From Candidatus Omnitrophota bacterium (GTDB taxonomy: Bacteria; Omnitrophota; Gorgyraeia; JABMRG01): a stretch of DNA of 64,000 nt. This document shows positions 12,001 to 31,640 of this stretch, piece after piece (the first letter of the stretch is position 1; the number at the start of each line of letters is the position of its first letter). The notes under the pieces are model-generated. The model ran no database searches. It was not told the origin of the DNA and saw nothing but the letters and a program-made list of their open reading frames with translations. Location: the NCBI GenBank assembly GCA_028716165.1, contig JAQUQI010000005.1, positions 24,996 to 88,995 of the forward strand, in the 5' to 3' direction. A program made the translations under genes and the position numbers.

Positions 12001-15000
12001 AACCAGCTTCAAGGTATGGCATTAGAGACTTTTTACGAAGAAATTACAATAAGGAAATCCGATTTAGCTGATAGCAAAAAGGCTGTTGTGCTTAATGATG
12101 ATATAAAAATAGAGGAAACCGATGAATACATAAAAATCCGCCGAAAAATACGCGGCCTGAATGATATCTTTAAGGGGCCTAAGCTTGCGATACTTGAGGG
12201 CGGCTATGGATGGTTTGAGAGTATTAAAAAAGACCCGCGTTATAAAGAACAACATAAAGATGTTTTAACAATATTTATATCTCCTTTTACTGATGAGGAA
12301 ATAGGTATAAGGGCTCTTAACAATGCCTGGGTTGATTCAAAATTCAAATTGCCGGAAGAAAAGGCGGCTGCTTATAATGAAATTTTTGTTGTAATTAAGG
12401 AATTGCAAAACGAAATAAACCTTGTCAATGATGCCAATTTACAGCAAAGGGTGATAAGAGCCGTAGAGGATAACGCGCCTTCGCTTAAGGATTCCGCGGC
12501 TTGTCACAATGCTCAAGTAATAGATAGCAATGAATTCTTAAGCAGCTTAAAAATTGATATTAAGTCCCCCGGCGCGATAGATAAGGTCAAAGCCCTCGCG
12601 TATGAAGTAAACAGAAGGCTTTCTATGCGGGACGGCGAAATCAAATTCGCTTATTCTATCAAAGACGACCCCGCCGGTTATGACAGGTATCAGAGGGTGC
12701 TGGAAGGCATTATGCAGATAGTTAATAAAAATGAATATGACACCGTTTTGACGAACACATGGGGCTATACTGATAATGCGAGAAATCAAAACATAGAGAA
12801 ACTAACAATGGAATTTTCAAAAAGCTTTTTCTCGCATGTGGTAAAAGGCCTCCGTGATTCAGCCAAGGCCAGTTCAAAGGCTTTTGCAAAACGAGCATAT
12901 CCTGAGGGGTTATTAGATATGGCAAAAAAATATTTCAATTCAGATATAGAGAAAACCCTTAAGCAATTAAAGGATTGGGCAAAAGCTTATAATGACGCTG
13001 TCAAAAACAAAGAGATACTGGATACGGAAGAAATGACAGTGGAAAGACTGCTTAATATAAAAACAGCAGAAGGCCAGACGGATGCTGTAGAATATTTTCA
13101 TATAATTGATTCTGACGGTAATTATATCGGCATCAAGCCAAGGCCTCTTGCGCATCTTTCTAAAGCAAATGAAGATTGGCACAGGAGCGTATTTGTCATC
13201 GTAGTTGATGAACAAGGCAGGATGCTGGTGCAGACTCGTTCTGCCAATAAAGACCATGCCCCTAATGCCAGAGATATTTCTACGGGCGGGCATATGGGCT
13301 TATTGGATGATGGGCGAAATCTCGCTGATACGACAAAAGAAGTTGCCCTAAAAGAACTTGGGGAAGAGTTATTTAACATAGGCAATCTTAAGGATTATAG
13401 TATTTCTCCTGACAGGCTTTCTATGATAAGCGAGGTAGACGGGCTAAGGCTTTCCGTTCAATATACGACCCCTGTTAAAGGGTGGGATAATGAGCGTGTC
13501 ACTGTGTTTCTTTATTGCGCATCAAAAATGGATATAGAAAGAATTGACGCGGCAGCAAAAGCGATAAGTGACGAAAAGGCTTCATTTACCGCTTTTGAGG
13601 GTGAGGTAGCGGCTATGGAATGGGTTGCAATATCAGATGAATGGAATAAATTTAAAAACATGCCAGATTCTGACAGGCGCGTCAATTATGGGGCCGGTTT
13701 TATAAAGTTGTTTACGGATTACGATCGGGATGTATCGGATCCGGATACTGTTTTAGGAAAGATAGCGCGAATGTCTAATGATCTCAAGGCGCTCTATGCC
13801 AAGTTTTCAGAGTACGAAAAGAGGCTTGGCGAAAGATCTATAGGCCAATTTGTTGGGAAACCATTTGATCCTAACAGGCATATTTATCGTCCGAAGGTAG
13901 GCCCTGATGGCGAGATGCTGCCATTTTCCGGCTTCACAGTAGCTAAGAGGATAACGGAAGGGAAGCTGCGTGAGGCATTAATCGCATTTCAAGAAACAAT
14001 GAAAGAAGAGCTTAAAGCCGCGGGCATGGGCGATGTAGTGGCATTTCTTGATCCTGCCTCGCTTCATATGACTATAGCGGATATTGATCCCAGCCGGTCA
14101 TATCCAAAAGGAACAAGTTTTGAACAAGCCGGACAAAGGTTAGGCCAGATAGACAGCGCTTTTAAAGATATAGGCACGCCCGGCGCAGTACAGTCTACGG
14201 TCCGTGGCTTAGGCCTTGGGAATACGATCTCGGCGCTTGTAAGATTTACTCCAGAAGATCTGGACAAGGCCCTTTTGCTTGAAGGCGCTGTTCAGAAATC
14301 CGCGGATGTGTTCAATAGGCAGTTTACCGGGCATATAAGCTTAGGATATATAGCAAAAGAACCTGAAGATTATGACAAGTTTATCGCGATTCTCCAGAAA
14401 TACGCAGATTATAATTTTGGCGAACTGTTAATTGATACAATTGCTTTATTGCATTTTTCCGACATGAATCATTATACGCCTTTAAAGGAGAAGAATTTGG
14501 ATACAGGTGAGATTACAGACCGTTCCGAAGCAAAAGAGTTTTTGGAGTTTTTAAGAAAAGCCCCCGAAACAGCTCAGGATGAGGTTGTAGGTGGAATTTT
14601 CGGCATAATGACGGCAATTTTGGAAAACGACCCCCGGGCTGGAGATGTCAAGAAAGCCCCCGAAACAGCAGAAAGGCCCGCTGACGAGCTCGTAGATGAA
14701 CTGTACCGCAATAAAGAGCCTATGGGTTCTATACGAAATATTGCCGACTTGGAAAAACTGGCATTGGATAATATTAATGATAATATGGTTGTGGAGCCTA
14801 TAAAAAAGGTTCTTATTGATATTCTTAATGATGAGCAGACGGCCGGAGAGGATTATATTTTTGTTCGCGAAATGGCGGCTTATGCGTTGAGAATATTCGC
14901 GGATATCAATATTATACGTTCGCTGATGACCGTTGCTTCGCTTGAAAACGCGATGAACACTGAAACAGCTGGCAATGAGCTGCCGCCAGCCATTGCGGGC

Positions 15001-15519
15001 CTTGATCTTGCCGGCGTTGCCGATTATTCGGTTGAATATCAGCTTGCCTTATCATTACTGGACTATTCGCCTTCCGGACAGCTGTTTGTTAATAGAGACA
15101 AGCAGGCAGTGATAGTTTACTCGGATGCTCTCAAGCAAAGCAGGGCATTGCAGGATATCCTTAGGGCGTCTGTTCAGGACGAGAGAAGGTTCTATTTCGT
15201 TAATAAGACATCCCTAAGTTCCGGTGAATTTTTAGCAGGGGTCGGCCTGGATACTTTAAATTTTGATAATATTATTGAAGCCGAGGATATGTCCGCAGGG
15301 CAAATAGCCGAAACTGTAATGTCCGAATTGGCTAATCAGCACATAACCCAAGCCCGCGTTTTTGCCGCATTGGATCAGGATTTAATGTCGTGGAAAACAG
15401 CTTCTATTGAAACACTCCTCATGCTTCTAAAGGACAAGAGGTTTGAGATAATATCCGATTACAGCCAGCAGCATGCCGAATATATCAGGACGCATGCCCA
15501 GGCGTTAACAGCAGCATAA
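1..15519 (+). CDS. Giant multidomain membrane protein, 5'-partial (>5144 aa). Contains tandem ~68-aa repeats, Rhs/YD-like repeats, three TM clusters, a guanylate-kinase-like domain with degenerate P-loop, a Nudix/IDI-like domain, and a C-terminal module paralogous to the ORF at 16714.
   Basis: One uninterrupted frame from base 1 to the stop at 15517-15519. The ORF track begins at a TTG at 85, but codons 1-84 have no stop, so the true start is upstream. Hydrophobic helices lie at about nt 7040-7140, 7990-8420 and 10150-10960. GK-like motifs are APGTGKG ... LYHTRSPR..DGIAYHF ... ILEGGYGW ... IFISPFTDEEIG. The IDI/Nudix-like stretch is HRSVFVIVVDEQGRMLVQTRS...GGH...KELGEEL. Confidence 0.85.
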   Translation, partial: TYVFNFDAETGRVTTGELKRYADSGRPILIALEYTPGKEGKSPSFKARVFGSQQDMEDAQDLLTSGSQIVLVSKADSFVVHEVQKAGEGYVARLDGNGAPVVWIHAEYNKGNPDVERSGAVSASIQDMRLIADIQSVSKKLRLKGPDGNDITGLAQITDANNLESVLNKDLGEPVQVSTELPDHKYVIMAYNSGTKQVLPFYGKSTFDVYTQFYNSPEHEKEFELLNLLKIGNIIYTDDNSSWLGGFEPQRGGVRRAKITMFNDNKGNEYPVKIGHDAQTRDDLYAYGVLEIDIRDDSFNPTGSWVYYLNKQGLPIDRLPHEEACNLRNVSINFSGKNENAKLLINDIAYGQNAHDKFGAFLPFAADVYDVSGGAPRPVGIHIDDRGRNRIYFEFTSQATQSADGTWSVPALAFCDMYDDQNVYLGQYAFNSIVKWTEGEDGAKAYTYEIGNALSWGVEAQSGPYAGNKFVYILDSTRKKDDGSYIISNEMLGKLGTTERGSHILSGKDLDTLGIDKNSKAVSRILRAAQIYQAGFEAGDPSRVMLFDSSYPGREKEAVAMSQYPGGELEMVIRGPNSKEIARFTFGDSDSYDTNKFGLYRKIVEDFQTDQSEKIKQMALSEGIITIPVKLGNYYIGHRYNNETSLYEHGMFKTLADLAKAGYAIYDEITAAQIFRLDSDTPAKIEFFANDGSSLGRAITDQKLSLSVFDKGGEKIGENVYEFVFDRLTGNVVIGKFLYFIDTKKAEEMLGKMLEALREDPVALEAFNLLTGAGIKDSGKLSQAQLDVLYTLIFKNDLGEFHENAADTEKTLEGLRLASSMLAALRGNQGALEAFNALTNAGFANEGYLADSQLAVLYGMIYDGEGEKHKHAGDPKTTMEGIILAKKALDQLRANPSELAAFNLIAGVNIKLSGPLTAEELTALYTLVYDSDGDFYRDSAGYAYTPIESIKFAGPMLKALRLDLEALKAFNLFTGVNIQPTGKLSQSQINALYGLIYGANGDFQPNATDPIATIEGLKLAVAMLDSLRSNPEALKLFNLFTGINITLQGALNGKQIDALYGLIYTKDADGKTILKDNADDPASAIQDIITFYNNVVSYVIAISANPNAMALANSAFGLGLTPNMTAGNITQAQLKIFSNSDLGILYDEGGVLRDIDTVVMLFKRMGEIYANWDSQAQSALRIFSGVDIAPGLDSLNSDQIKAFNTLLFDRNGNLYLTDAEFDAQTVVANLKRVIYKVGDTYVTENGLAAYSLNSNSPGVKPLLLAQVTKTGKHDRMYIIDPSIPNTDNVYAEILEGDIDLDAGTINLKFVVNVGRDSAGNRISSVTNYDGREVQRGTLAGFIDSSGGYIPSDVYIDDLSDIAAVRMKITTSLFGQQWYEEYDFNGNIVRTIKPYPETGQAEVVKYNVKENGSFPDSRSYLYEYDNNLNDIKTDKPVMDLRESKIIGYTDMNDPIAFVHDSVTDSYWQEIIDPVGRVKAKVIGDYNAAAGIFSPIAIEIPSYDGYIGASAIGSSKMYEYSKANGYNTAAYAGSKVLIETGKIEIITIDGRVCVRSFYFNNKTNVSWQEIKDARGNIIAKLYQYPDSGSSGYRASFVEIMQYEPGIGSIEGIAQSGKLYLFTGREDLRDFSISQYADKPVLTESYLVDHSGKAITTVEALKMDSLVYQYENKVSKLVWQEERDNRGRLIAKYTGVSSRDDQGNLTGFSRKVVEKITPTGILGVMHISATSNSYLYETYQGEKGKHLSEYRPEFAYVSAQIINDSGNAVDSLAGIAQDNTVTYRYVNHKTHLVWEEVRDGFGRIIRRYDGETLGDKSSPLTEPFKRVLVTDQYYEGLIGDFGLSTSSEVYSLDESGKKVGNPIDQSELLSNKFEKLDFEQLSATDSFGALKSIFDEQGRIYYQGSRAYKRSDIRGEGLLEYREIKNNTGSIEERFEGYKDPSGKFVSNLKRYFFYPDSDIWRSFSIAQKTILTIFVDGKEIIFSVANRTSFDEQTGDISYSCKKGKGIINFPQITYTNLEQSLDLLFEDAKGFEYVTYAWQEIKNNRGWLVQTREGFGLDDKNFPMGVPRYITFLKGYSLDIPISLEAHIYKYDDNAGERLDGQVIRTKQTESDYRHGTKVGSLQGLHFTDNIAVYDVNDTRINRKSVNNSGYRMDGRLAWEIHAGKMFRDKVYLTYFNELECADYSARLVGVLSPIAGSKLNITNRLAEIKQEPYKTHYTIMIPSKPGSYIVWDKTPDQAKNVWFAVDRFMDGDEIDTEKVSSKGFTRAVENRNIFTAPSEDSALNLAEQDGKYFSEGEFLYEIKNKYTPVLWRSYHENSIREYIGVQFNKHIKNSWLYNAIVESNKRDTLSPIVITTAVSLAAITFLLPLALFLFTYVLSYVHFKKLGKKQIADTKSSGLPGEGGDIASGRAPSAQAPGHASAKVSPGAPSVPDQEIRVRVADINRHLYLNKAFTDYLISLYYKTDEELFALLDAYYPDTHSEKPAMLSERYKYSMVLNNNTVSPDSKQRAKYDFVDRVFTKPISYLMLAIMIDQAEKWDWMNKGELDKGDRITGGLADNFWPFTDRDMKRLFEYFKADGKDPILELGLYKYLGATTLQQWYMDANIKALKEKADKNTTEKQAKANVKKKKDHKLEKGKLIEEAIKPAKEWLAKRYEYEGLHQTVYPMKVNKIINLVWRVFALGGTAGLIAMAITSFSSFGVIGLVFTGLIWSFVLVETHKMLQYAQFHKNWLQGLRTMFKARADYKGPLSEAELKVKKNFFKAYFGWMGTYAAVIVGFSLLYSVGSIPWFGWLAAIPILVISLRESFRSWWYIFTESAATAISRNQRLDSLKRYEDIGKQELDRIRRNEYLKDVFKDVVIEATLSVESGFHLISKQEEQALIKVLNDPKAKKLPDLKSPHAKQEIIKWFNTILMFDEDEFKRIYDQTKLDELNPSIFKGTGKKRVLPTRDFLDAEDGETKDAKGVITEYTPAGIIKSGFYVFKEEFKESWEIFLRDDIFNGVAVDDAFLERLMDPKTTLKQTIEDIAQKLGRTQKDIEEYIISKWIVFRADGYLKTLLFAERAGEAAYRVLIKHKFKDENGRDPSEAEINDILKKHLMFIHVHEDIDPDIQNWGGKNPSEIINILCDTNRPQGTYTINGCSYADTGSEKSFNRTFTPQDSNKIILSTKEFKGHDYLKDEAKRWVVKTDKWSVTARFIEKFLKDIVKEDAMIVNLDRDHFFYPSEFFMLPFLAQRFTSEDNLGYLTTRLDMRTGYVAPTGAAHQVAEDTWNLRTLLAEALLGASSYYGPGLVRWSVMRSWGAYMSNIEDTAAAHEAIMDGMRGDHTTWITWGRPREMVGASILDFQNRFGGLVIDEFLSVHYQKLLKSDKAHWTEKLTIFQNFDFYFNKPLIPHFNLLIFLFSFFINFTPFSFFALPILFVSLGYLFSQAITSGGIRLFHAKQPFLKAWASYSKMFWGLVFTFVPLIPMHGEKALNAFKGTAGRFSSGIKDIFYPAVKFRELYNLYKPSIRWGVALLGILCLAPTHPWAIVTQIFFHIFPIAFIFGPFMKNAPANKKIAASVFGVSGALFALNAIFAFMPMPFVAAVALGIIIAAGLTGKEKYTKGITHGLLAIVYYLLRIDDIFFDRPGARGPDAKGVKTKVKDRKYSPLMTSLLISVSLPFYVLRLDLLGALIKKQDSKAELGAGLELGLDLSRKIFNPLNESSGKFAALMNDSLKALMSLAQSDQNLDAYLQNLLSKEDNISKNISIRVLKNLPVNAARYLNDMGSVEIVLNERFVLSLLNDYDSYPVVKYILAERLFHELGHDNKTGTAQEEVDEEAELIARDLELHSIISSDIQNEINKYFQDKKPSFPSGYYFVFLDKLSKLGDGQRSASIRDYIRQNGLAIGRLSDDEINALSVEELVQLIESVLDMSGKEIANKFLLYSAAPGTGKGEVMDAIFTEGKGKYAHLVDKLTLYHTRSPRVKKGISEKDGIAYHFRGEDELRQLEKEGKIITALVNNQLQGMALETFYEEITIRKSDLADSKKAVVLNDDIKIEETDEYIKIRRKIRGLNDIFKGPKLAILEGGYGWFESIKKDPRYKEQHKDVLTIFISPFTDEEIGIRALNNAWVDSKFKLPEEKAAAYNEIFVVIKELQNEINLVNDANLQQRVIRAVEDNAPSLKDSAACHNAQVIDSNEFLSSLKIDIKSPGAIDKVKALAYEVNRRLSMRDGEIKFAYSIKDDPAGYDRYQRVLEGIMQIVNKNEYDTVLTNTWGYTDNARNQNIEKLTMEFSKSFFSHVVKGLRDSAKASSKAFAKRAYPEGLLDMAKKYFNSDIEKTLKQLKDWAKAYNDAVKNKEILDTEEMTVERLLNIKTAEGQTDAVEYFHIIDSDGNYIGIKPRPLAHLSKANEDWHRSVFVIVVDEQGRMLVQTRSANKDHAPNARDISTGGHMGLLDDGRNLADTTKEVALKELGEELFNIGNLKDYSISPDRLSMISEVDGLRLSVQYTTPVKGWDNERVTVFLYCASKMDIERIDAAAKAISDEKASFTAFEGEVAAMEWVAISDEWNKFKNMPDSDRRVNYGAGFIKLFTDYDRDVSDPDTVLGKIARMSNDLKALYAKFSEYEKRLGERSIGQFVGKPFDPNRHIYRPKVGPDGEMLPFSGFTVAKRITEGKLREALIAFQETMKEELKAAGMGDVVAFLDPASLHMTIADIDPSRSYPKGTSFEQAGQRLGQIDSAFKDIGTPGAVQSTVRGLGLGNTISALVRFTPEDLDKALLLEGAVQKSADVFNRQFTGHISLGYIAKEPEDYDKFIAILQKYADYNFGELLIDTIALLHFSDMNHYTPLKEKNLDTGEITDRSEAKEFLEFLRKAPETAQDEVVGGIFGIMTAILENDPRAGDVKKAPETAERPADELVDELYRNKEPMGSIRNIADLEKLALDNINDNMVVEPIKKVLIDILNDEQTAGEDYIFVREMAAYALRIFADINIIRSLMTVASLENAMNTETAGNELPPAIAGLDLAGVADYSVEYQLALSLLDYSPSGQLFVNRDKQAVIVYSDALKQSRALQDILRASVQDERRFYFVNKTSLSSGEFLAGVGLDTLNFDNIIEAEDMSAGQIAETVMSELANQHITQARVFAALDQDLMSWKTASIETLLMLLKDKRFEIISDYSQQHAEYIRTHAQALTAA
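2233..3700 (+). repeat. In-frame tandem array inside the giant gene: 5 clear and 2 degenerate copies of a ~201-204 nt (~68 aa) unit, consensus ..ALEAFNLxTGxNI..G.Ls..Q...LY.LIY..DGDF......DP....EGL.LA..ML..LR.NP
   Basis: ALEAFN / ELAAFN / ALKAFN / ALKLFN recur at nt ~2287, 2491, 2692, 2893 and 3094 with a 201-204 nt period. Two further decayed copies sit near 3330 and 3540-3650. Confidence 0.7.
4380..6160 (+). repeat. Dispersed Rhs/YD-like repeats inside the giant gene, motif [SVA]W(Q/E)E..D..G(R/N)(L/I)I..Y, at least 5 copies
   Basis: SYWQEIIDPVGRVKAKV (~4390); SWQEIKDARGNIIAKLYQY (~4691); VWQEERDNRGRLIAKYTG (~5025); VWEEVRDGFGRIIRRYDGE (~5375); AWQEIKNNRGWLVQT (~6110). These resemble the YD-repeat core D..GRL....Y, flanked by Y.YD/Y.YEN motifs. 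Confidence 0.4.
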
Positions 15520-15566: not shown

Positions 15567-16694
15567 ATGAGAAGGAGCATAAAAATATTTGTTTTATACG
15601 CAGGCCTTGCCATTATATCCATGGCAAGCCCCGCTTATTCTTGGCAAAATTTTTTATGCGCCTTAAGGCCTTTATCGCTGGCGCAATCGCAAAGGATTGA
15701 ATCAGATATAAAGTCCGCCTTCTTGTCAATGCGTATTTCAGATATTGTGTTTATCGCGGATAAAGATGGGACTTTGTCAAAGCCTAATGAGCCTGTCCGC
15801 GGTTCCACGGTTAACCTTATAAGTGAAATTTTTAAAATGTACGGCCGTTCGCATATCGTTATCTGCACAGGGGGTATACTGGAAGACAGCGAGAATAATC
15901 TTATAAAGCCTTTGGAGGAAATGATAAAGTCTGGTGATTCCAGTTGGTTTGAGCGTTTAACATATTATTTTATGGCTGGACTGGGTAAAATATCTTGGAA
16001 TAAGCAAGGAATACGAACGATTGAGTATTTTGGAAAACCTTTTTCAGCAGATGACCAGATGTTTATCGTAAGAAATCTGGCTAAATCTCTGGCAGGCAAT
16101 ATAGAGGGCATGCGCCTGCCTGAAAGCATTGATAGGGCCGAAAGCTTTGACGCCTTTAGTAAAATATTTGATGAATTTGTAGCAGAAAATAAAAGCGTTC
16201 TCGGCCATATTGAGATTGCCAACGGCATGGGCCGGCAGTTTACCATAGAGTTTAAAAAATCGTCCGAGAAACAGGCATTGCCTGAATTGCAAAATTCTGA
16301 TTTTACCCGAAAGGTCGCGGAAACTTTTAAAGAACTTCTTGCACAGCGCCCTAACCTCCAGAATCTGCATGTAAGATACGGTGATACATATGTGGATTGC
16401 AGTCCGGTGGATAAAAAAGATGCCATAGAATATTTTTTAAGCGAGAAAAATTTTGAAAGCCCTCTTATTGTGGCGGTTGGAGACGGTAGTAATGATTATG
16501 GGTTTTTATTTAAAGCCGCAGACGATAGGACGAAGCTATCTTTTTTTGTAGGCAAAGGCCATGAAGGCTTGCCCGATCATGTGACTCTATGGCAGACGCC
16601 CGGCCCGGCTGGAACGGAAGAGATACTGTCGTCAATAGTCAAGTCAGTCAAAAGCTCATTTGACATGGAATATAATATAAGAATTTGCGCCTAA
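15567..16694 (+). CDS. Secreted HAD-superfamily (subfamily IIB, Cof/sugar-phosphatase-like) hydrolase
   Basis: N-terminal signal peptide followed by FLCALRPLSL. HAD motif I is DKDGTL (nt ~15760) and motif IV is GDGSNDYGF near the C-terminus. Confidence 0.6.
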   Translation: MRRSIKIFVLYAGLAIISMASPAYSWQNFLCALRPLSLAQSQRIESDIKSAFLSMRISDIVFIADKDGTLSKPNEPVRGSTVNLISEIFKMYGRSHIVICTGGILEDSENNLIKPLEEMIKSGDSSWFERLTYYFMAGLGKISWNKQGIRTIEYFGKPFSADDQMFIVRNLAKSLAGNIEGMRLPESIDRAESFDAFSKIFDEFVAENKSVLGHIEIANGMGRQFTIEFKKSSEKQALPELQNSDFTRKVAETFKELLAQRPNLQNLHVRYGDTYVDCSPVDKKDAIEYFLSEKNFESPLIVAVGDGSNDYGFLFKAADDRTKLSFFVGKGHEGLPDHVTLWQTPGPAGTEEILSSIVKSVKSSFDMEYNIRICA

Positions 16695-16713
16695 TAATAA
16701 AAAGGAGGCCTAT

Positions 16714-19044
16714 ATGCACGGATTAAGGGTATTTAAAAAATCTTTGATATTTGTGTTAATATGCTGTTTTTTTATCAATCAGCAGCTTTTGGCCTGCGAA
16801 TTTTTTTGCCTAAGGCCCGCGTCTGTTAATAACTCCAACACCCCTCTTGTTTTACAGCAACCGGATGATTTAAACAAATTATCTGTAAAAGAACTTGAGG
16901 CCAAACTCCAAAATATTAAGTTGATTAAGCTGAAGGAGCTGAATAAATTGACACCGTCCAGCAAGGAGGAGCTTAAAGATCTCGCTGGCAGGGTAGCTGA
17001 AATGGGCGATTACTTGAGTGCGGTTATACAAAAAGAGTTATTGGGAAATGGTAAAAAATATGGCAATATTATGGAAAAATTTATGCTATTTTCAGCAGGT
17101 CCCGGAACTGGTAAGGATTATGTTTTTTCTAAAACATTTGGAAGAGAAAAAGAAAAAAATGCAAATAAAAAATGGAAGTATCCACACTATACAGATGGGA
17201 GCTTCTTTAAGTTAGTTGAAAAATTGATATTGTATCATTCAAGGCCGTTAAGAACAAAAGAAAATGAAAAAGACGGCTGGGAGTATAATTTTGACACAAG
17301 ACTTGATCATAATCGTATAAACACATTAGAAAATAAAGGAAAAATTAAAACCGCAACAGTAAACAGGCAGTTACAGGGTATGGCAATAAACGGATTTGAT
17401 GAGAAAGGCGTGGTAATAGAGAATGTTATCAATCCTGCAGATTTTAAAGCAGGTGATAAGGTAACAAAAACTATTGAATTTTTGGATGGAGAAAATCTCA
17501 AACAAGATGTTTTGGTTAAAAGGCAAGGCTTCGAGCAAAACCTGAAAATAACCACAGGTATAAAAGATGATGAAATAGGAGATGGCAAGCCCGGCGTCTT
17601 TATTGCGGGTGATATTATTGAAGAGGTTTCTCATAAAGATGTAACAGTTAAAAGGCCTGTAAAAGGCATAATGGATATTATTGATGGGCCCAAACTTGGG
17701 GTGGTTGAGGTAGGATATGGCTGGTTTAGGATGCTTACAGGTCCTCAATCTCCGACGAAGGATGTGTTCAAAATTTTTATAGCACCGTTTGACGAAAAAG
17801 AGATGCGATACATGACTAATGCAAGGAAATGGATTGAGCGCAGATTTACCAGCTATAATGAAAGAGCTTATGCCCATTTGTATATTTCATATAAGATGCA
17901 AGAAGCTAAGAAAGAATTATCAAACTTTAAATTCAAAGAAATAAGAGAATTAAAAAAAGACATAAAAGAACGCCTTAAAAAATTAAATAAAGATGAGGAT
18001 CTTATTGAAAAAGAGTTGGCTGATATTGCAGGCAAGGTTATGGAGTCTGGTATTAAAAAATTTGGATCAGACAAACAGACATATGCGAATCGTTTATTGG
18101 AATACGCAAAGCTTATAGAGAAAGAAGATTTTATAGTGCATCTGAATGAAAGATTGGAAAGCGATTTTGGTGATCCAAATGGAATAACGGACGTTAATCA
18201 AATAAGAGAAGCGAGATTGCTTGCTTACGAGATTAACAGAAGGACCCTTGCAAGGGATAGAGCTGTAGGGTTATCAAATGATGACAAACAGCCTGTTGAG
18301 TATGATAGATATAATAGATTGCTTGAAGGCATAATCCAGATTATGCATCGTAACGAATATGCCCAAAAAGGCGGTTTTGTTGTAATTAATAGGTGGGTAT
18401 TTGATCAAAGCAAGCAACAGGAATATGATGATGTTTTAAAAATACAATTTGCCGGAGCGTTTTTCTCAAATTTGATCGGAAAAATACAAGAAAAAATAAA
18501 ATCTCCTTCAGCAGGCATTGTCCCGGAGCGCGCGCCGGATTATGATGAGCAGTACATTTTAGCCGACGGGCTTCTTCGCTATTTCCCGGAGGGCATAATA
18601 AATGTCCCCGCGGAAAATCAAGCCGTGATAGTTTATTCAGATTCGCTCGCGGAAAGCGCGGCATTGCAGGATATAATCAGAAAGTCGTCAGCAGATGGCA
18701 GGAAATTTTATCTTGTCAATAAACAGGATTCCGTTTCCGCCGAAGATTTTTTAAGAAGCCTTAATATTGACAGGGATATATTTGAAAGCAATGTTTTTTT
18801 GCAAAACTCGCTTTCAGCCGATCAACTGGCGCTTAATATAGCGGCCGTGCTTAATAAAAACGGTATCCGCCAGGGCAGGGTGTTTGCCAGCGCGCAAGAC
18901 GATCTCATTGCCTGGAGCAGACAGGGCCTTATTGAAGCCCTTGTAATGCTACTAAAGGACAAGAAGTTTGAGATAATATCGGATTACAGCCAGCAGCATA
19001 CCGAATATATCAGGACGCATGTCGAGGCGCTGAAAGCGGCATAA
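16714..19044 (+). CDS. Secreted/lipoprotein 776-aa paralog of the giant protein's C-terminal region: GK-like domain with degenerate P-loop plus conserved C-terminal module
   Basis: RBS AAAGGAGG 6 nt upstream of the start. Signal peptide with a possible lipobox LLAC, then EFFCLRPASV. GPGTGKD...LYHSRPLR..DGWEYNF...VEVGYGW...IFIAPFDEKEM aligns with the giant protein's GK-like segment. The last ~150 aa align with the giant protein's C-terminus. Confidence 0.7.
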   Translation: MHGLRVFKKSLIFVLICCFFINQQLLACEFFCLRPASVNNSNTPLVLQQPDDLNKLSVKELEAKLQNIKLIKLKELNKLTPSSKEELKDLAGRVAEMGDYLSAVIQKELLGNGKKYGNIMEKFMLFSAGPGTGKDYVFSKTFGREKEKNANKKWKYPHYTDGSFFKLVEKLILYHSRPLRTKENEKDGWEYNFDTRLDHNRINTLENKGKIKTATVNRQLQGMAINGFDEKGVVIENVINPADFKAGDKVTKTIEFLDGENLKQDVLVKRQGFEQNLKITTGIKDDEIGDGKPGVFIAGDIIEEVSHKDVTVKRPVKGIMDIIDGPKLGVVEVGYGWFRMLTGPQSPTKDVFKIFIAPFDEKEMRYMTNARKWIERRFTSYNERAYAHLYISYKMQEAKKELSNFKFKEIRELKKDIKERLKKLNKDEDLIEKELADIAGKVMESGIKKFGSDKQTYANRLLEYAKLIEKEDFIVHLNERLESDFGDPNGITDVNQIREARLLAYEINRRTLARDRAVGLSNDDKQPVEYDRYNRLLEGIIQIMHRNEYAQKGGFVVINRWVFDQSKQQEYDDVLKIQFAGAFFSNLIGKIQEKIKSPSAGIVPERAPDYDEQYILADGLLRYFPEGIINVPAENQAVIVYSDSLAESAALQDIIRKSSADGRKFYLVNKQDSVSAEDFLRSLNIDRDIFESNVFLQNSLSADQLALNIAAVLNKNGIRQGRVFASAQDDLIAWSRQGLIEALVMLLKDKKFEIISDYSQQHTEYIRTHVEALKAA

Positions 19045-19217: not shown

Positions 19218-22200
19218 ATGGGTGTGAGAAAAGTTTCGCTAAAAATATCCGCCGTTTTTTTAATGGCAATAACGCTGGCCATATGGGCCAGGCCCGCCTT
19301 TTCTCTGTCCTGCCTTAGGCCGTCATCCCTGGCCGCGTCTAATGATACGGGTATAGTCCTGGATCTGCGGCCTGCGAATGGAGCGAATTTTAACAGTCAA
19401 AAAGCGCTCGCTGATTTTTTACATAAACGCGGGCTTATGCCGCAAGGCGTAAAAAGAAAGACCGCGCGCCTGGCAATCAGGGAAATGGCAAAGGCCCTTG
19501 AGACATACAGATTTGCCCAAGGTTTTAAATATCCTCCGTCAGATGAAGAGATCCTGAACTCGCTTGAGGATACCAACCTGTTCGATCCTTATAGAATCAG
19601 CCATAAATTACCGGTAACAATGGTTTTCAGGAAAGGCGCTTACAACGGAGATTACAAGAATAATATATCAAGAATTATTTTTACCCTAAGCCACGATTTT
19701 TGCGCGTTTGCTTCTATATGCGGGGTTGAAACGGAAGATAATGATATTATTTCTCTTGCCAGCCTGCATTATTGCGAGTTTGGCGACATGCTGTATGATA
19801 TGAGCGATGGAGTGCTTACTTCATTTCTCAAGTCTTGCGTTAGCCAGGCTGTATTTGAAGATACCACCAATAGCTTATGGGGTGTCGGTTTTAACGGGGC
19901 CGCCTGTTGTATTATAAGAAACCCATTGTCTCATAGGGAGAAAAAGGAGATTATCAAGCAATTCGCGGCATCTTTTTCAAACATTGGGATTTTAGGAAAA
20001 ACATTAATACTTAAGCCCGGTAAAAATACGGACGAAGCAGACATGGCTGTTATACAGGCCCGCGCCAACAGCGTTTATGGTTTTGCCAATAAGTCTTCTG
20101 CGGGAAAAGGCAAAGTGTATTTTCCTGTTGCCACATCAAGGGCTTTTGATAAAAACAGTTTCCCCCACACATTATGGAAAATAAGGGCGGCCGGTATAGT
20201 AGAGGCCTTAAACGCGGTTTTGCGCTCTAAAGGCATAAAACCTGAAAATGCCACTGTGATATTATGCGGGAAAACGGTTATAGCGCGTGGGGTTTTTGAT
20301 ATATTATTGTCGCAGAAGACAAAGGTAGTGGGGATATATGACGGTGACCATTGTCTGTATAACAAAAAAGGCATTGTGTCCCAGTATGGCAACAAAAAGG
20401 ATGACAATGTGATATTGGCAGACCTTTTAAGCATGGAGGCCACTGCCCTGGTTTCAACAGACATTTTTTCTCTTATCAGTTCAAAAAATATGCCCAGGCT
20501 TTGCGTGGATGTTATTATTGACGGCATATATCCGGCAATAAATCCTGAAACGTCAGATGCTCAAGCATTACCTGGCAAGATCACATATATACCCGCGTGC
20601 TTAAGCTGTGGCAGCAGCGCCTATGCCAGCGCCAGCGAGTTTTTTAACAGCAATGCCTCCGGTATGAACATAAAAGACCCGAGGATGCACCTTGAAAGAA
20701 GCATATTCAATATTGTCAATTCACTTGTTTTCTTAACAGACCGGGGTATCGTTCAAGGTTCTGTATACAATATATTAACAAAAAAAGCCGAAGAAATACG
20801 GAGCTTAAGGAACAGGTTCATAGAAGTTCCTACGGAAGAAGTCATAGAAGAGGCTGAATTTGAAATGCTTTACGGCTTGCCGGAAAGAATAGCCTTTTTG
20901 CGCGCTGCCACAAATATTGCCCTGACAAAAGTATTGTTTTCCGGTATCAGCTCCAATGCTCTTATGGATATTATTATGTCCGCTCGCTCCGATATGCTTG
21001 AAAAGAGAACGGCTGTTTATATATTAGGTAAAAAACAGGACCTTTCGTCAGTTGCTGAATTAATGCGGATAATATCGGATGAGGATGAGGACATAGACTT
21101 GAGGATAAACGCTATAGAGGCTGTCGGAAACATGAGGGCCGGAAGCGCGATAGAGCTCTTGCTTAAAATATGCAAACAAAAGAGTAAAGGTACGGATTTG
21201 TCCGGTTGGGCATCCTGGGCCCTTGAAAAGATGGGAGTCGCATTAAACGGGCAGAAAAGCCCGGTTAAAGAAGGAATATCATTCAGCCGCGCGCTGGAAG
21301 AATTGCCGAAAAAGGCGGCGGACGCTTGGTTTAATAATATACAAAAAGAGGGCAATAAGCCTGTTATGATCGGTTTTTCGGGGTATTCGGCAAGCGGTAA
21401 ATCGTACTTCGCGTCTTCTTTTGTCAAAAAATTGAAACTGATTATTGCGTCCCAACGGCGCAGATTAGATAAAGCTCCGGATAAAGCTGTGCATGAGATG
21501 CCCGCTATATACCGGCTTGATATGGATGAATACCTTATTCCAAAAAATGAGCGTTTGGCGCGCGCGAAAAGTTTAGGTTATGAGTTGTCAATTTTTATTA
21601 AATACGAAATAAAAAGATACTATGAAGACATGAAGGCCTTTGCCGCGGGCAAGCCTATATATGTCCCGCATTTTAATCAGGTAACGCGCCAGCGCCAGCG
21701 TTTGGCTCAAAGCCAGATTGACCTGGCAAGGATTGCTTTGGCGCGGGGCGCCGAAAGCCATGAACGCTATATAGACGGCCGAAAACATACTATTGTTTAT
21801 AGCCCTGCGATCAGCAGTGAAATGGGTATAATGGCTTATATAGACCTTGAGTCAGGGGATATCCTTACGCGTTTAGACCCGGAGAACAATATCCTTATAG
21901 TTGAGGGCATATTGGCCCTTACGAGCGAATCTGTCAACAGCTTGTTTTATGAAAGCATTTTTATAAAAGCGCCATGGACATTAAGATACTTGCGGGACAT
22001 TGAGCGTTATATCGCAACGGGTAAATACGCTTCTTTGACAGTGCAGCAGGTAAAAGAGAAGTTTGAGAGAAAGCGCGCTGCGGAAGAAACGCGTTTTATA
22101 TCCGCCCAGGAATCTATAAGTTCGCGTGTTGTGGATACCGCGGACAGCCCAACTGGCGCTTATGTTGAAGCCTTTACCGGAGCTTTAGACCTTTACAGGC

Positions 22201-23510
22201 AATGGCGCTTGGAGATATCCGCGGAAAAGGCAGGGCTATCCGAACAAAAAGAAAAAGTCAAGGGCCTCTTCATGGATATTGTCCGCCGGCATATTATTGA
22301 TAAAAATGTTTTAGAGAAACTCTGGACAAGGTTCTGCCAGAATACCCTTTTGCTGGAAAGAAGCGCTCTTTTTGACCTTGTTTCGCGCGTGATTGAAGAG
22401 CAGAACAGAAAATTATGGCCGTCATTATCAAAAACCGCAAAAAAGACTGTGATAAGTGGTATTCTGGAAAGCCGCGGCCTTGATTGCCAGGATTTTGACA
22501 TATTATGGTTTTCAGTATCTGTCCCGGATGAAATCAGGAAATACACCAGTACCCTGCCTGCCGGCGCGCCGGAGAATGGACAGATATGCTATTTTGGCCC
22601 GGATTCTATAAAGGGCCGGGACATAAAACTTATTATGGCTGATTTTGACCGCACCCTTTCTTCAGACCCATTTGCCATCGGGGATGATATCATCAGAGAG
22701 ATTGAAAAATTTCTTGCCTCCGGCGGCATATTTGTTGTCAACACAGGAAGGACGACAGACAGGATGCGCACGGTATTTGACAAAAGGATAGCGCCTGAAT
22801 TAAGAAAAAACATGATCTTCATGGGAGAATTTTCATCAATTATAGCCGGATACGATGAGAACGGCACTTTTTATACTGACTACCAATCCTCATTAAATGA
22901 TGATTTTCTCCTTAGCAAGGCCTTTACAGATAAGGTCATTGAAGACCTGCGTCTTAGGCTCGGTGTTAAAGCGGCATTGGAAGATGATTATAATCCCGTT
23001 GAACATGACGTGAAAATAATAAAGAACGGTAAACAGGCGACCATTACGGTATCATATGAAGATTGCCCGCGGATAAAATGCAAAACAAAGGACATGCGTT
23101 TTTTGCTTGAGAATGTTTTAAAGTCTTTTGGAAGGAGCGATTTCCATTTGTATGAAACATCCAGGTGCATTGATATATCCTTTAGGTCAAAGGCTTTTGG
23201 GCTTGATTGGGCGCTTGACAGATTCGGCCTGGATCCCGGGCAAATTGTAATCATAGGAGATAGCGCGGGATTATTTAAAAACGACAGGCCTATGTTAACG
23301 CATTTACCCCAGGCTTTAAATGTTTATGTAGGGATTGAAGATATCAATTCCCTGCCCAGCGGTATATTATATGGCAAAATGCCTTCAGAGGCAGGGGTTG
23401 TAGAAATACTGCGGGCAATTACAGGCGCCGGAAACGAAGTTAAAGGCCCCGGTCGCGTTACAATATTTGATAAGCGCCAGTTCGCGGCCGGCATAATGGC
23501 CGCTGCCTGA
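19218..23510 (+). CDS. Secreted 1430-aa multidomain protein: degenerate Glu/Leu/Phe/Val-dehydrogenase-like region, HEAT (PBS-lyase-like) repeats, PRK/uridine-kinase-like P-loop domain, C-terminal HAD-IIB phosphatase domain
   Basis: Signal peptide then LSCLRPSSLAAS. The GDH-like stretch (~19670-20420) has the GGGKGG lysine motif replaced by GAACCI and the Rossmann GFGNVG replaced by GKTVIARG. HEAT is LRINAIEAVGNMRAGSAIELL. The P-loop is GFSGYSASGKSYF (nt ~21370-21410). HAD motifs are DFDRTL (nt ~22640) and GDSAGLFKND. Confidence 0.65.
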   Translation: MGVRKVSLKISAVFLMAITLAIWARPAFSLSCLRPSSLAASNDTGIVLDLRPANGANFNSQKALADFLHKRGLMPQGVKRKTARLAIREMAKALETYRFAQGFKYPPSDEEILNSLEDTNLFDPYRISHKLPVTMVFRKGAYNGDYKNNISRIIFTLSHDFCAFASICGVETEDNDIISLASLHYCEFGDMLYDMSDGVLTSFLKSCVSQAVFEDTTNSLWGVGFNGAACCIIRNPLSHREKKEIIKQFAASFSNIGILGKTLILKPGKNTDEADMAVIQARANSVYGFANKSSAGKGKVYFPVATSRAFDKNSFPHTLWKIRAAGIVEALNAVLRSKGIKPENATVILCGKTVIARGVFDILLSQKTKVVGIYDGDHCLYNKKGIVSQYGNKKDDNVILADLLSMEATALVSTDIFSLISSKNMPRLCVDVIIDGIYPAINPETSDAQALPGKITYIPACLSCGSSAYASASEFFNSNASGMNIKDPRMHLERSIFNIVNSLVFLTDRGIVQGSVYNILTKKAEEIRSLRNRFIEVPTEEVIEEAEFEMLYGLPERIAFLRAATNIALTKVLFSGISSNALMDIIMSARSDMLEKRTAVYILGKKQDLSSVAELMRIISDEDEDIDLRINAIEAVGNMRAGSAIELLLKICKQKSKGTDLSGWASWALEKMGVALNGQKSPVKEGISFSRALEELPKKAADAWFNNIQKEGNKPVMIGFSGYSASGKSYFASSFVKKLKLIIASQRRRLDKAPDKAVHEMPAIYRLDMDEYLIPKNERLARAKSLGYELSIFIKYEIKRYYEDMKAFAAGKPIYVPHFNQVTRQRQRLAQSQIDLARIALARGAESHERYIDGRKHTIVYSPAISSEMGIMAYIDLESGDILTRLDPENNILIVEGILALTSESVNSLFYESIFIKAPWTLRYLRDIERYIATGKYASLTVQQVKEKFERKRAAEETRFISAQESISSRVVDTADSPTGAYVEAFTGALDLYRQWRLEISAEKAGLSEQKEKVKGLFMDIVRRHIIDKNVLEKLWTRFCQNTLLLERSALFDLVSRVIEEQNRKLWPSLSKTAKKTVISGILESRGLDCQDFDILWFSVSVPDEIRKYTSTLPAGAPENGQICYFGPDSIKGRDIKLIMADFDRTLSSDPFAIGDDIIREIEKFLASGGIFVVNTGRTTDRMRTVFDKRIAPELRKNMIFMGEFSSIIAGYDENGTFYTDYQSSLNDDFLLSKAFTDKVIEDLRLRLGVKAALEDDYNPVEHDVKIIKNGKQATITVSYEDCPRIKCKTKDMRFLLENVLKSFGRSDFHLYETSRCIDISFRSKAFGLDWALDRFGLDPGQIVIIGDSAGLFKNDRPMLTHLPQALNVYVGIEDINSLPSGILYGKMPSEAGVVEILRAITGAGNEVKGPGRVTIFDKRQFAAGIMAAA

Positions 23511-23788
23511 TACTGCGCAGTTATAATCCAGGCGATATTTTGATAAGTAAGGCACCGTCTTAAAACGCGCGCTTGCCGCTCTTTATTATTTTTTCGGTTT
23601 TTTTCGTGTATCCATGGTGAAAATCTGACCGGGAAGGAGGGAAAAAGTAAAAGCTGATTTTTCAGGATTTTAGCTTGACGCATATTGCTGATTTTGATAA
23701 ACTAATAACACTTATCCTTTAAAAGGATCAAAATAACCGCTGTTTCTGCGTTTAATGCATGAGAACTTATATAAAGGAGGAACGGATA

Positions 23789-31624: not shown

Positions 31625-31640
31625 TAAAAAAGGAGGAGAC

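What the first reader, a model, noticed from the sequence alone, without database searches (positions are those of the whole stretch)
16714..19044. Secreted 'mini' paralog of the giant protein's C-terminal region
The 776-aa protein reproduces two non-contiguous segments of the giant protein. One is the GK-like domain plus following helical region (giant aa ~3880-4290). The other is the terminal module (giant aa ~4990-5144). It skips the Nudix-like region and carries a signal peptide/lipobox instead of the 3800-aa N-terminus. This looks like a domain-shuffled soluble or anchored partner, or a decoy, for the giant protein, positioned directly downstream.
Basis: seen in the sequence. Interest (0 to 1): 0.6.

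Follow-up and report, generated by a model that had tools for sequence, protein, structure and literature searches.

The report
Small exported paralog of giant protein
The 776-residue protein really is a cut-down copy of two separate parts of the neighbouring giant protein, but both belong to a wider, undescribed family of exported modular enzymes in Omnitrophota bacteria that share the same start and end "labels", so the small gene offers a tractable handle on how the giant proteins are addressed and what they do.

Summary
BLASTP aligns mini aa 101-618 to giant aa 3875-4287 (29% identity, E 2e-45) and mini aa 600-776 to giant aa 4971-5144 (50%, E 3e-41). Neither match depends on low complexity: 200 shuffles reach at most 28 bits. 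The giant's ~680-aa Nudix/2H insert is absent from the mini.

The organism is an Omnitrophota MAG. A second species keeps the same gene order. The duplication is old, shows no gene conversion, and is under purifying selection.

The "partner/decoy" reading is not needed. An exhaustive profile search found 96 relatives.
- The terminal module (CTD) sits at the extreme C-terminus of about 49 proteins of 175-6585 aa with unrelated cargo. All end in -AA or -QA.
- Most proteins with an intact N-terminus carry a conserved signal peptide followed by an LR[AP]xS box.
- The "GK-like plus helical" stretch is one divergent guanylate-kinase-family module with its catalytic residues kept.
- The lipobox Cys is not conserved.

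Best reading: the mini is the minimal free-standing member of an exported modular enzyme family, and the CTD is a shared address or assembly module. A recurrent K[TSA]SS[AS]G joint motif (93 copies vs 0.3 expected) hints at processing.

The parts
16702..16708 (+). Shine-Dalgarno AAGGAGG for the mini ORF
   Evidence: Read directly. It lies 5 nt before the ATG at 16714. The 19-nt gap to the upstream stop suggests co-transcription.
16714..19044 (+). Mini ORF, 776 aa (NCBI PHV77_03810, Candidatus Omnitrophica)
   Evidence: The ortholog P0002 is 71% identical in a syntenic locus. dN/dS is 0.36.
16714..16794 (+). Signal-peptide-like N-terminus (aa 1-27: basic n-region, h-region ...FFINQQLLA, small residue at -1)
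   Evidence: A Kyte-Doolittle maximum of 2.19 and the family-wide pattern F-x-N-[QSN]-h-x-[FYW]-A support it. No dedicated predictor was available, so export is inferred.
16810..16824 (+). LRPAS box (aa 33-37), the family LR[AP]xS motif just after the signal peptide
   Evidence: Present in 18 of 22 CTD proteins that have a hydrophobic N-terminus. Aligned. Also present in the neighbours o375 (ALRPLS) and o1430 (CLRPSS).
17014..18513 (+). Divergent guanylate-kinase-family module (aa ~101-600), homologous to the giant at nt 11707-12945
   Evidence: BLASTP E 2e-45. Pfam PF00625 hits on family modules reach 26-60 bits against a 25.2-bit cut-off. Conserved residues are listed.
17092..17118 (+). P-loop SAGPGTGKD (aa 127-135)
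   Evidence: Lys134 is conserved in 21/21 aligned modules. The residue after the Lys is D here; across the family it is G in 16, D in 4 and T in 1.
17386..17583 (+). Beta-rich insertion (aa ~225-290) inside the kinase module, absent from the giant's copy
   Evidence: It appears as a gap in the giant in A1. The region is predicted as beta-strands at pLDDT 57-73 in the otherwise poor full-length model. It is present in P0003, P0004, P0005, P0009 and P0011.
17809..18213 (+). Variable helical insertion (aa ~366-500) between the kinase core and the conserved AYEINRR...YDRYNRLLEG segment
   Evidence: This is the least conserved part of the module: 29% identity to the giant and dN/dS 0.56.
18499..18516 (+). 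KSPSAG (aa 596-601), a degenerate copy of the family joint motif K[TSA]SS[AS]G immediately before the CTD
   Evidence: The ortholog has KSSSAG. The motif occurs 93 times in family proteins against 0.3 expected.
18517..19041 (+). C-terminal domain (CTD, aa ~602-776): alpha/beta Rossmannoid with a HAD-like fold, no DxD motif, ending ...ALKAA
1..15519 (+). Giant ORF, cut by the window start (at least 5172 aa here; ortholog 8417 aa)
   Evidence: It is 69% identical to the ortholog over 2935 aa.
11707..12945 (+). The giant's copy of the GK-family module
   Evidence: tblastn and BLASTP and HMM search.
12946..14994 (+). Giant-only insert: Nudix (~13180-13641), 2H phosphoesterase (~13903-14076) and a HEAT-like stretch
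   Evidence: Pfam NUDIX E 9e-3 and 2H E 5e-4. NCBIfam YfcD-type Nudix E 2e-8.
14995..15516 (+). The giant's copy of the CTD, ending ...ALTAA
   Evidence: CTD HMM E 3e-70.
15567..16694 (+). o375: signal peptide, ALRPLS box and a canonical HAD-IIB phosphatase. It lies between the giant and the mini.
   Evidence: Pfam and NCBIfam. The DxDxT, T, K and GDxxxND motifs are all present.
19218..23510 (+). o1430: signal peptide, CLRPSS box, HEAT repeats, a uridine-kinase/PRK-like P-loop kinase and a C-terminal HAD-IIB domain, ending ...IMAAA

Best explanation
The mini is the minimal free-standing member of a modular family of exported enzymes restricted to an Omnitrophota lineage. The neighbouring giant belongs to the same family.

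Its parts, in order:
1. A family-specific Sec-type signal peptide followed by an LR[AP]xS box.
2. One elaborated guanylate-kinase-family P-loop module. It keeps the P-loop Lys, the xH[TS]RxxR...E.DG..Y.F phosphate-acceptor site and several candidate lid Arg residues. It has lost the guanine-specific residues and carries two insertions.
3. A K-x-S/P-S-A-G joint.
4. A ~175-aa C-terminal Rossmannoid domain with a HAD-like fold. It has lost the Asp nucleophile and must sit at the very end of the chain, where the last residue is an invariant Ala.

The giant carries the same kinase module and the same CTD, with Nudix, 2H and HEAT-like modules spliced in between.

Shown: the paralogy, the modularity, the old age of the duplication, purifying selection, the kinase-site conservation, the CTD's predicted fold, its missing DxD, and its strictly terminal position on diverse cargo.

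Inferred:
- After Sec export and signal cleavage (after LLA27), the CTD acts as a common non-catalytic address or assembly module. It brings differently loaded family members, mini and giant included, to the same envelope or extracellular destination.
- There the kinase module works on a phosphorylated nucleotide-like or sugar substrate, alongside the neighbouring HAD-IIB phosphatase, the kinase-plus-HAD-IIB protein and the giant's Nudix and 2H modules.
For: Paralogy and controls.

Conserved synteny in a second species: the four genes are 66-73% identical.

Age of the duplication: informative sites group by paralog 172:3.

Selection: dN/dS is 0.36 overall and 0.13 in the CTD.

Family-wide CTD:
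- The exhaustive search found 96 relatives, 52 of them at E<1e-30.
- The CTD is at the extreme C-terminus in all ~49 carriers of 175-6585 aa. They end in -AA (32) or -QA (13).
- Only 2-4 of the carriers also have the kinase module.

N-terminal signature: the signal peptide plus LR[AP]xS box is seen in 18 of 22 and aligns cleanly. The neighbours o375 and o1430 carry it too.

A graded series: P0003 and P0004 are the mini's N-terminal half, then an insert, then the CTD.

Kinase module: Guanylate_kin hits on family modules. Lys134 is conserved 21/21, Arg177 and Arg180 28/28, Tyr191 28/28.

Genomic pattern: tandem arrays of signature-bearing genes follow CTD genes in five other loci.

Modules as free-standing genes: o522 (52578..54146) is a free-standing paralog of the giant's N-terminal module. 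Modules that exist both free and fused are therefore a general pattern here.

Genomic context: the sugar ABC importer, glycoside hydrolases, PilZ protein and GspC-like PDZ protein match the neighbourhood published for Omnitrophota giant genes.
Against: - Export is inferred from sequence pattern only. No signal-peptide predictor was run and there is no experiment.
- An ATP-dependent kinase outside the cytoplasm has no obvious ATP source, unless it acts in a prey or host cell.
- The CTD's most conserved polar residues (Ser642, Asp643, Lys670, Asp730) fall where a HAD active site would be. It is also the most constrained part of the protein. Both fit a ligand-binding or catalytic role as well as they fit an address role.
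- No receptor, sortase-like enzyme or secretion component has been linked to the CTD.
- The number of CTD proteins per genome is unknown.
- The giant's own N-terminus was not recovered. It is inferred from P0100, which is 52% identical over the adjoining region.
Confidence: 0.55

Rival explanations
1. The mini is a dedicated partner or decoy of this particular giant. It would dock on, or compete with, the giant's C-terminal region through the shared terminal module (for example CTD-CTD pairing) or by mimicking its kinase module.
For: The giant, the HAD gene and the mini stay adjacent in two species. The CTD is the best-conserved segment between the paralogs at 50% identity. HAD-fold domains often dimerise (general knowledge, not tested here).
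Against: The CTD occurs on about 49 cluster representatives with unrelated cargo, and the kinase module occurs in many other large proteins. In other loci, CTD genes sit next to family genes that share neither module. There is no within-genome co-variation of the mini and giant CTDs: 2 of 42 informative sites. The kinase catalytic residues are retained in both copies, which does not look like a decoy.
Confidence: 0.15
2. The CTD is a working, highly divergent HAD-type enzyme or ligand-binding domain. The mini would then be a bifunctional kinase/phosphohydrolase, analogous in layout to T4 polynucleotide kinase-phosphatase. The shared C-terminus would reflect shared chemistry, not shared addressing.
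Against: Motif I DxD is absent (YSD instead). The motif II Ser/Thr and the motif III Lys are not conserved. Pfam and PDB sequence searches find no match, and hhalign gives 0.1% probability against the locus's own HAD-IIB domains. The domain is strictly terminal, with an invariant last Ala, on cargo that mostly lacks any kinase.
Confidence: 0.25
3. The similarity is a low-complexity or compositional artefact, or the mini is a decaying fragment copy with no function.
For: The helical middle part is Lys/Glu-rich and poorly conserved.
Against: E-values of 1e-45 and 1e-41 survive SEG masking and composition correction, and shuffles reach at most 28 bits. The ORF is intact in two species at 71% identity with dN/dS 0.36. 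It has a strong SD. There are 96 homologs.
Confidence: 0.01

Closest known systems
Guanylate kinase family (Pfam PF00625), including catalytically altered GK-like domains such as those of MAGUK proteins
   Same: It has a P-loop [AG]xPGxGK and an NMP-site motif x-H-[ST]-R-x-x-R...E-x-D-G-x-x-Y-x-F. The core strands are ...LEGGYGWF and IFIxPF, and the C-terminal part ends ...V(I/L)xNxW. Several family modules pass the Pfam threshold.
   Different: The mini itself gives no Pfam hit. The residue after the P-loop Lys is D or G, not S/T. The guanine-reading positions are replaced by an invariant VNxQLQG. There are two large insertions, one beta-rich of ~65 aa and one helical of ~135 aa. The module sits behind a signal peptide and occurs in tandem inside giant proteins.
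HAD superfamily phosphatases without a cap domain (e.g. MDP-1, the T4 PNK phosphatase domain), and non-catalytic HAD-fold domains
   Different: There is no DxD nucleophile motif, no motif II Ser/Thr and no conserved motif III Lys. No sequence or profile similarity to HAD families was found. Foldseek does not single out HAD.
C-terminal address modules on diverse secreted cargo (T9SS C-terminal domain; dockerins of cellulosomal enzymes)
   Same: The logic is the same: an N-terminal signal peptide, variable catalytic cargo and one conserved module at the extreme C-terminus, shared by many proteins, often preceded by a linker.
   Different: The fold is different: a ~175-aa alpha/beta domain, against an 80-100-aa beta-sandwich or a ~70-aa Ca-binding dockerin. 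The phylum is different. No cognate machinery has been identified and no cleavage has been shown. This is an analogy, not membership.
Giant multi-enzyme Omnitrophota proteins ('Archaeovorins', West-Roberts et al. 2023, bioRxiv 10.1101/2023.11.21.568195; also 10.64898/2026.06.07.730766)
   Same: The phylum matches. The content is the same kind of multi-enzyme mix (NUDIX, HAD, kinases, HEAT). The neighbourhood matches too: a PilZ gene, sugar importer genes, glycoside hydrolase genes and type II secretion-like genes downstream.
   Different: The giant here is ~8.4 kaa, well below the >=30 kaa class. Term searches of those two papers turned up no conserved CTD, no LR[AP]xS box and no free-standing mini paralogs. 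A library-wide search for the KxSSxG hexapeptides found nothing relevant.
T4 polynucleotide kinase-phosphatase architecture (P-loop kinase fused to a HAD phosphatase)
   Different: The kinase belongs to the GK family and the HAD-like domain lacks the nucleophile. The PNK hits are not better than generic HAD hits. No ligase or RNA-repair partner is present.

Membership tests
Guanylate kinase family (PF00625) | Walker A P-loop with an invariant Lys | tested here: met
   The mini has SAGPGTGKD and the giant SAAPGTGKG. The Lys is conserved in 21/21 aligned modules.
Guanylate kinase family (PF00625) | Ser/Thr directly after the P-loop Lys | tested here: not met
   D in the mini and G in the giant. 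Across the family: G 16, D 4, T 1. GKG is the adenylate-kinase pattern (general knowledge), so this does not exclude activity.
Guanylate kinase family (PF00625) | NMP-phosphate site [ST]-x-x-R-x-x-R ... E-x-x-G-x-x-Y-x-F | tested here: met
   The mini has YHSRPLR...EKDGWEYNF. R177 and R180 are conserved 28/28, E185 25/29 and Y191 28/28. They align to the same residues of the canonical-looking GK P0092.
Guanylate kinase family (PF00625) | Profile match above the Pfam gathering score | tested here: inconclusive
   The mini gives no hit and the giant's module scores 13 bits. Four related modules score 26-60 bits against a 25.2-bit cut-off. Membership is therefore by transitive homology.
Guanylate kinase family (PF00625) | Guanine-specific residues and GMP kinase activity | not testable with these tools
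   The positions equivalent to the ...YGT motif read VNxQLQG, invariant in the family but different from P0092. The substrate is unknown.
HAD superfamily | Rossmannoid HAD core fold | tested here: inconclusive
HAD superfamily | Motif I DxDx[TV] at the end of strand 1 (Asp nucleophile) | tested here: not met
   The near-invariant sequence is (I/V)VYSDxL. No DxD occurs in any of the 34 aligned CTDs.
HAD superfamily | Motif II Ser/Thr, motif III Lys, motif IV acidic pair | tested here: not met
   Strand 2 ends LVNK, with no S/T. There is no conserved Lys before the strand-4 helix. After strand 4, only the second Asp (D730) is invariant. The mapping was done by secondary-structure register, not by superposition.
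HAD superfamily | Sequence or profile similarity to HAD families | tested here: not met
   Pfam gives one member at E 0.017 for Hydrolase_6 and nothing otherwise. The PDB profile search finds nothing. hhalign against the locus's HAD-IIB domains gives probability 0.1%.
Bacterial lipoprotein (lipobox) | A conserved Cys at +1 of an L-[AS]-[GA]-C lipobox | tested here: not met
   The mini has LLAC28 but the ortholog P0002 has VLAR. Family members have AFA|F, AYA|A and similar.
Sec (SPase I) signal peptide | A basic n-region, a hydrophobic h-region of 15-20 residues, and small residues at -1 (and usually -3) | tested here: inconclusive
   The pattern is present by inspection and hydropathy: KD maximum 2.19, with Ala27 at -1 and Leu25 at -3 (LLA27). 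It is conserved across the family. No dedicated predictor was run and no cleavage data exist.
Polymorphic-toxin orphan cassette | A conserved N-terminal or pre-toxin region with a variable C-terminal toxin, followed by an immunity gene | tested here: not met
   The polarity is reversed. The extreme C-terminus is the conserved part and the upstream cargo varies. No immunity-like small gene was noted among the ORFs >=150 aa after the mini.
T9SS C-terminal domain | An ~80-100-aa beta-sandwich at the C-terminus of cargo | tested here: not met
   The CTD is ~175 aa and alpha/beta. NCBIfam and Pfam give no hit.

The most novel reading that the evidence does not exclude
Four elements recur in these proteins:
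- a specialised signal peptide (F-x-N-[QSN]-h-x-[FYW]-A);
- the LR[AP]xS box that follows it;
- the sharply defined joint motif K-[TSA]-S-S-[AS]-G, which has no conserved flanks;
- the degenerate-HAD C-terminal domain that ends in an invariant Ala.

Together they could form a previously undescribed sorting and processing system for modular proteins in an Omnitrophota lineage. In this reading the large and giant proteins are polyproteins that are cut or modified at the KxSSxG joints. The small residues at -3 and -1 of SSA|G would suit a signal-peptidase- or LexA-type Ser/Lys protease. The free carboxyl end of the CTD would be read by a dedicated partner, for example a PDZ domain such as that of the GspC-like protein at 47572-48273. 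The mini would then be a naturally pre-separated kinase-plus-address unit.
Probability: 0.25. Interest if true: 0.85.

Novelty: new variant of a known kind. Interest (0 to 1): 0.6.

Why it matters
Giant Omnitrophota proteins are too large to express or model. It is still debated whether their enzyme modules act inside the cell, outside it or in prey, and whether the proteins are processed.

This locus supplies a 776-aa, two-module, free-standing version of the giant's kinase and terminal domains. It also defines sequence labels that can be searched genome-wide: the signal peptide with its LR[AP]xS box, the KxSSxG joints, and the terminal pseudo-HAD domain ending in Ala.

Several questions become directly testable:
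- Localisation of the mini.
- Cleavage at the joints, by metaproteomics.
- The binding partner of the CTD.
- The substrate of a guanylate-kinase-derived module that has lost its guanine-reading residues.

If the CTD proves to be an address module, it would be a new type of C-terminal sorting domain built on an enzyme fold.

Tried and rejected
1. Low-complexity artefact: rejected by SEG, composition-corrected BLAST and shuffles.
2. Gene conversion or co-evolution between the mini and giant CTDs: rejected. Only 2 of 42 informative CTD sites group by genome.
3. Lipoprotein: rejected, because the Cys is not conserved.
4. Full-length AF2 of the mini with a 3-sequence alignment: pLDDT 40.6, unusable.
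5. Direct Pfam, NCBIfam and PDB sequence searches of the mini and the CTD: no hits.
6. The search for homologous proteins:
- The single-sequence query returned only the self hit and one ortholog.
- The CTD alignment returned 5 short unnamed proteins.
- The giant query returned only P0100.
The tool seems to miss long relatives, so no source names or taxonomy could be gathered for most family members.
7. The genome-contig scan with A2 failed because no stretch was conserved enough. With A3 it gave only 6 loci, too few to count CTD genes per genome.
8. Recovery of the giant's N-terminus: the metagenome locus L009 stops ~150 aa short of the start. The N-terminus is inferred from P0100 only.
9. The Foldseek afdb50 library was unavailable.
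10. hhalign of the CTD against the locus's own HAD-IIB domains: no relation.
11. Iterating the CTD HMM over all fetched sequences converged at once. The CTD is absent from o375, o1430, ORF 54143 and the extra signature genes of L008, although these also end in Ala.
12. Literature search for the joint motif and for a conserved Omnitrophota CTD: nothing relevant.
13. Promoter and terminator scans around the cluster: no more sites than in shuffles, so uninformative.
Full report
**What is at the coordinates.** ORF 16714..19044 (+) encodes 776 aa. An AAGGAGG Shine-Dalgarno sits at 16702-16708, and only 19 nt separate the ORF from the stop of the upstream gene. The exact protein is in NCBI as a hypothetical protein of a Candidatus Omnitrophica MAG. 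The upstream 'giant' ORF is open from window nt 1, so the window cuts it. The ortholog in a related metagenome contig is 8417 aa.

**Check of the observation.** BLASTP gives two HSPs:
- mini 101-618 vs giant 3875-4287 (numbering from nt 85): 29% identity, E 2e-45.
- mini 600-776 vs giant 4971-5144: 50% identity, E 3e-41.

SEG masking and composition correction change nothing, and 200 locally shuffled minis reach at most 28 bits. The 683 aa of the giant between the two segments have no counterpart in the mini (A1). They carry weak Nudix and 2H-phosphoesterase matches.

There are three corrections:
- The giant is truncated by the window.
- A HAD-IIB gene (15567..16694) lies between the giant and the mini.
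- The apparent lipobox Cys28 is Arg in the ortholog.

**Evolution.** A second species (L001) has the same gene order: giant, HAD-IIB gene, mini, 1430-aa gene. The products are 69, 73, 71 and 66% identical. In a four-way alignment, informative sites support ((mini,mini),(giant,giant)) 172 to 3. The duplication therefore predates the species split, and there is no sign of gene conversion or within-genome co-variation. dN/dS between the mini orthologs is 0.36 overall, 0.19 in the C-terminal part of the kinase module and 0.13 in the terminal module. The gene is functional, and its C-terminal module is its most constrained part.

**The wider family.** A profile of mini, ortholog and giant was searched against 1.84 billion cluster representatives. 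It found 96 proteins, 52 of them at E<1e-30. Domain mapping changes the picture.
- The terminal module (CTD) is found at the extreme C-terminus of about 49 proteins of 175 to 6585 aa. Their upstream regions are mostly unrelated to the mini.
- Every one of them ends in -AA (32) or -QA (13).
- In the 34-sequence alignment the last Ala is one of only three invariant columns.
- P0003 (1425 aa) and P0004 (3164 aa) have the mini's N-terminal half, then a large insert, then the CTD. The mini is therefore the shortest member of a graded series, and the giant's C-terminal region follows the same plan.
- The kinase-like module also occurs internally, sometimes two or three times in tandem, in many large proteins.
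- Within this window only the giant and the mini carry either module.
- The family is confined to Omnitrophota MAGs, some of them labelled Planctomycetia.

**N-terminal signature.** Of 22 CTD proteins with a hydrophobic N-terminus, 18 have LR[AP]xS at residues ~32-43. It follows a conserved signal-peptide-like segment ending F-x-N-[QSN]-h-x-[FYW]-A. The mini fits this pattern (FFINQQLLA | CEFFC LRPAS). So do its two neighbours o375 (ALRPLS) and o1430 (CLRPSS).

In five other loci a CTD gene is followed by one to three further genes with this signature. Clusters of such genes are the rule.

The giant's own start lies outside the window, and the fetched ortholog locus stops ~150 aa short of it. 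The 6628-aa relative P0100 is 52% identical to the ortholog from its residue 153 onward. P0100 begins with the same signal plus an LRA box and ends in -QQA.

**The first shared segment.** Four related modules hit Pfam Guanylate_kin above threshold (26-60 bits against a 25.2-bit cut-off). The giant's copy scores weakly, and the mini's not at all.

Across about 29 aligned modules the following are conserved:
- the P-loop Lys, 21/21;
- the two Arg of x-H-[ST]-R-x-x-R, 28/28;
- the Glu, Tyr and Phe of E-x-D-G-x-x-Y-x-F;
- several later Arg residues (R314, R510, R514, R535).

The first three sets align with the same residues of a canonical-looking GK (P0092).

Other positions differ from GK:
- The residue after the Lys is G in most modules, as in adenylate kinases (general knowledge), and D in the mini.
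- The positions that read guanine in GK are replaced by an invariant VNxQLQG.

After a variable helical insertion come segments (AYEINRR..RD, YDRYNRLLEG..VVINRW) that resemble the lid and last strand of GK. I could not model this. The mini and some relatives carry an extra ~65-aa beta-rich insertion that the giant's copy lacks.

I conclude that this is one elaborated GK-family phosphotransferase module. It is probably active, on an acceptor that is not GMP.

**The terminal module.** With the 34-sequence alignment, AF2 gives a confident model (pLDDT 87.3, pTM 0.82). It is a six-strand alpha/beta domain with a long C-terminal helix.

At sequence level there is no relation to HAD families, and the defining DxD nucleophile motif is absent. 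Strand 1 ends in a near-invariant YSD, strand 2 ends in LVNK, and only one Asp (D730, invariant) follows strand 4. The domain is thus a degenerate HAD-like fold. It keeps a few polar residues where the active site would be.

**How it most likely works.** These things are shown:
- The mini and the giant are old paralogs inside a modular family.
- The kinase site is conserved.
- The CTD is strictly terminal on diverse cargo, is under the strongest constraint, and lacks the HAD nucleophile.

These steps are inferred:
- The proteins are exported by Sec and their signal peptides are removed.
- The CTD is a shared, non-catalytic address or assembly module that brings different cargo to one destination.
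- The kinase acts there on nucleotide- or sugar-phosphate substrates, together with the neighbouring enzymes. Those are o375 (a canonical HAD-IIB phosphatase), o1430 (HEAT repeats, a uridine-kinase/PRK-like kinase and a HAD-IIB domain) and the giant's Nudix and 2H modules.

The surrounding genes are a sugar ABC importer, glycoside hydrolases including GH94, a PilZ protein and a GspC-like PDZ protein. They match the neighbourhood reported for giant Omnitrophota genes.

The main weakness is the lack of an ATP source outside the cell, unless the enzymes act in a prey or host cell. The second weakness is that the conserved polar cluster in the CTD fits a ligand-binding or catalytic role equally well.

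**Modules that exist both free and fused.** o522 (52578..54146) is 33% identical over 477 aa to the N-terminal region of the giant P0100. It is 30% identical over 384 aa to the N-terminal region of this giant's ortholog. o375 aligns with the C-terminal HAD-IIB domain of o1430, with all HAD motifs conserved. The mini is therefore one of at least three small free-standing versions of large-protein modules in this window.

**A recurrent joint motif.** The hexapeptide K-[TSA]-S-S-[AS]-G occurs 93 times in the family proteins, against 0.3 expected from shuffles, and has no conserved flanks. It is found in three places:
- about 20-25 aa after the LR[AP]xS box;
- between modules, up to nine times per protein;
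- about 20 aa before the CTD.

The mini has one degenerate copy (KSPSAG, aa 596-601; KSSSAG in the ortholog). The visible part of the giant has none. I found no description of this motif. A cleavage or modification site at module joints is the obvious hypothesis, but it is untested.

**Comparison with what is known, and novelty.** The module types are known kinds: the GK family and a HAD-like fold. The giant belongs to the published class of multi-enzyme Omnitrophota proteins. Several things were not turned up by my term searches of the two relevant preprints or by the motif search of the paper library:
- the strictly terminal degenerate-HAD domain with an invariant last Ala;
- the signal peptide with its LR[AP]xS box;
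- the joint motif;
- the existence of small free-standing paralogs.

I rate this a new variant of known kinds, with interest 0.6. The value lies less in the mini-giant pair itself than in the tractable handle it gives on the addressing, processing and function of giant proteins.

Noticed in passing
Family proteins P0002-P0100; window 18499-18516 (KSPSAG) and 54650-54667 (KSSSAG); loci L004-L009: The hexapeptide K-[TSA]-S-S-[AS]-G recurs 93 times in ~140,000 residues of family proteins, against 0.3 expected from shuffles. It has no conserved flanks. It sits after the N-terminal box, between modules and before the CTD. It may be a processing or modification site.
   Followed up: partly
window 52578-54146 (o522) and 54143-55450: o522 is a free-standing paralog of the N-terminal module of giant proteins: 33% identity over 477 aa to P0100, and 30% over 384 aa to this giant's ortholog in L009. 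It has no Pfam hit. The overlapping next gene has a hydrophobic N-terminus, a KSSSAG motif, and ends ...ALISA.
   Followed up: partly
window 15567-16694 vs 22605-23507: o375 (signal peptide plus HAD-IIB) aligns with the C-terminal HAD-IIB domain of the 1430-aa neighbour at ~21% identity. All four HAD motifs are conserved and both proteins end in Ala. This is a second small/large paralog pair in the same cluster.
   Followed up: partly
window 1-84 and L009: The giant ORF is open to the window's first base. The TTG at nt 85 is not its start. The ortholog is 8417 aa and its fetched upstream region (21 kb) is one open frame.
   Followed up: yes
window 23759-24433, 31596-32243, 41446-42753: Three paralogous putative lipoproteins share a C-terminal domain ending ...Y(L/I)DDI(K/R)(Y/F)E (57%, 30% and 31% pairwise identity). 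The first is 94% identical to its ortholog, while its neighbours are only 66-73% identical. None has a Pfam hit.
   Followed up: no
L002 8637-8648 vs window 20931-21006: Another assembly of the same organism is 100% identical except for a 64-nt deletion that splits the 1430-aa gene into 581- and 792-aa ORFs. This is probably an assembly error or a strain variant.
   Followed up: partly
window 47572-48273: A small GspC-like protein has a PDZ domain. PDZ domains bind free C-termini, and the family's invariant ...[AQ]A carboxyl end could be such a ligand. This is speculative and was not tested.
   Followed up: no
P0100 (6628 aa, ENA): A relative of the giant carries SecA_DEAD, SecA preprotein-binding, GGDEF and glucan-synthase Pfam domains, the family N-terminal signature, and a weak CTD match (E 6e-10) near its C-terminus, ending -QQA. 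This echoes the SecA-like domains reported in Omnitrophota giants.
   Followed up: no
window 29059-29727 / 29525-31624: Two + strand ORFs overlap by about 200 nt. The start of the 699-aa GH2-like ORF is probably downstream of the listed ATG.
   Followed up: no
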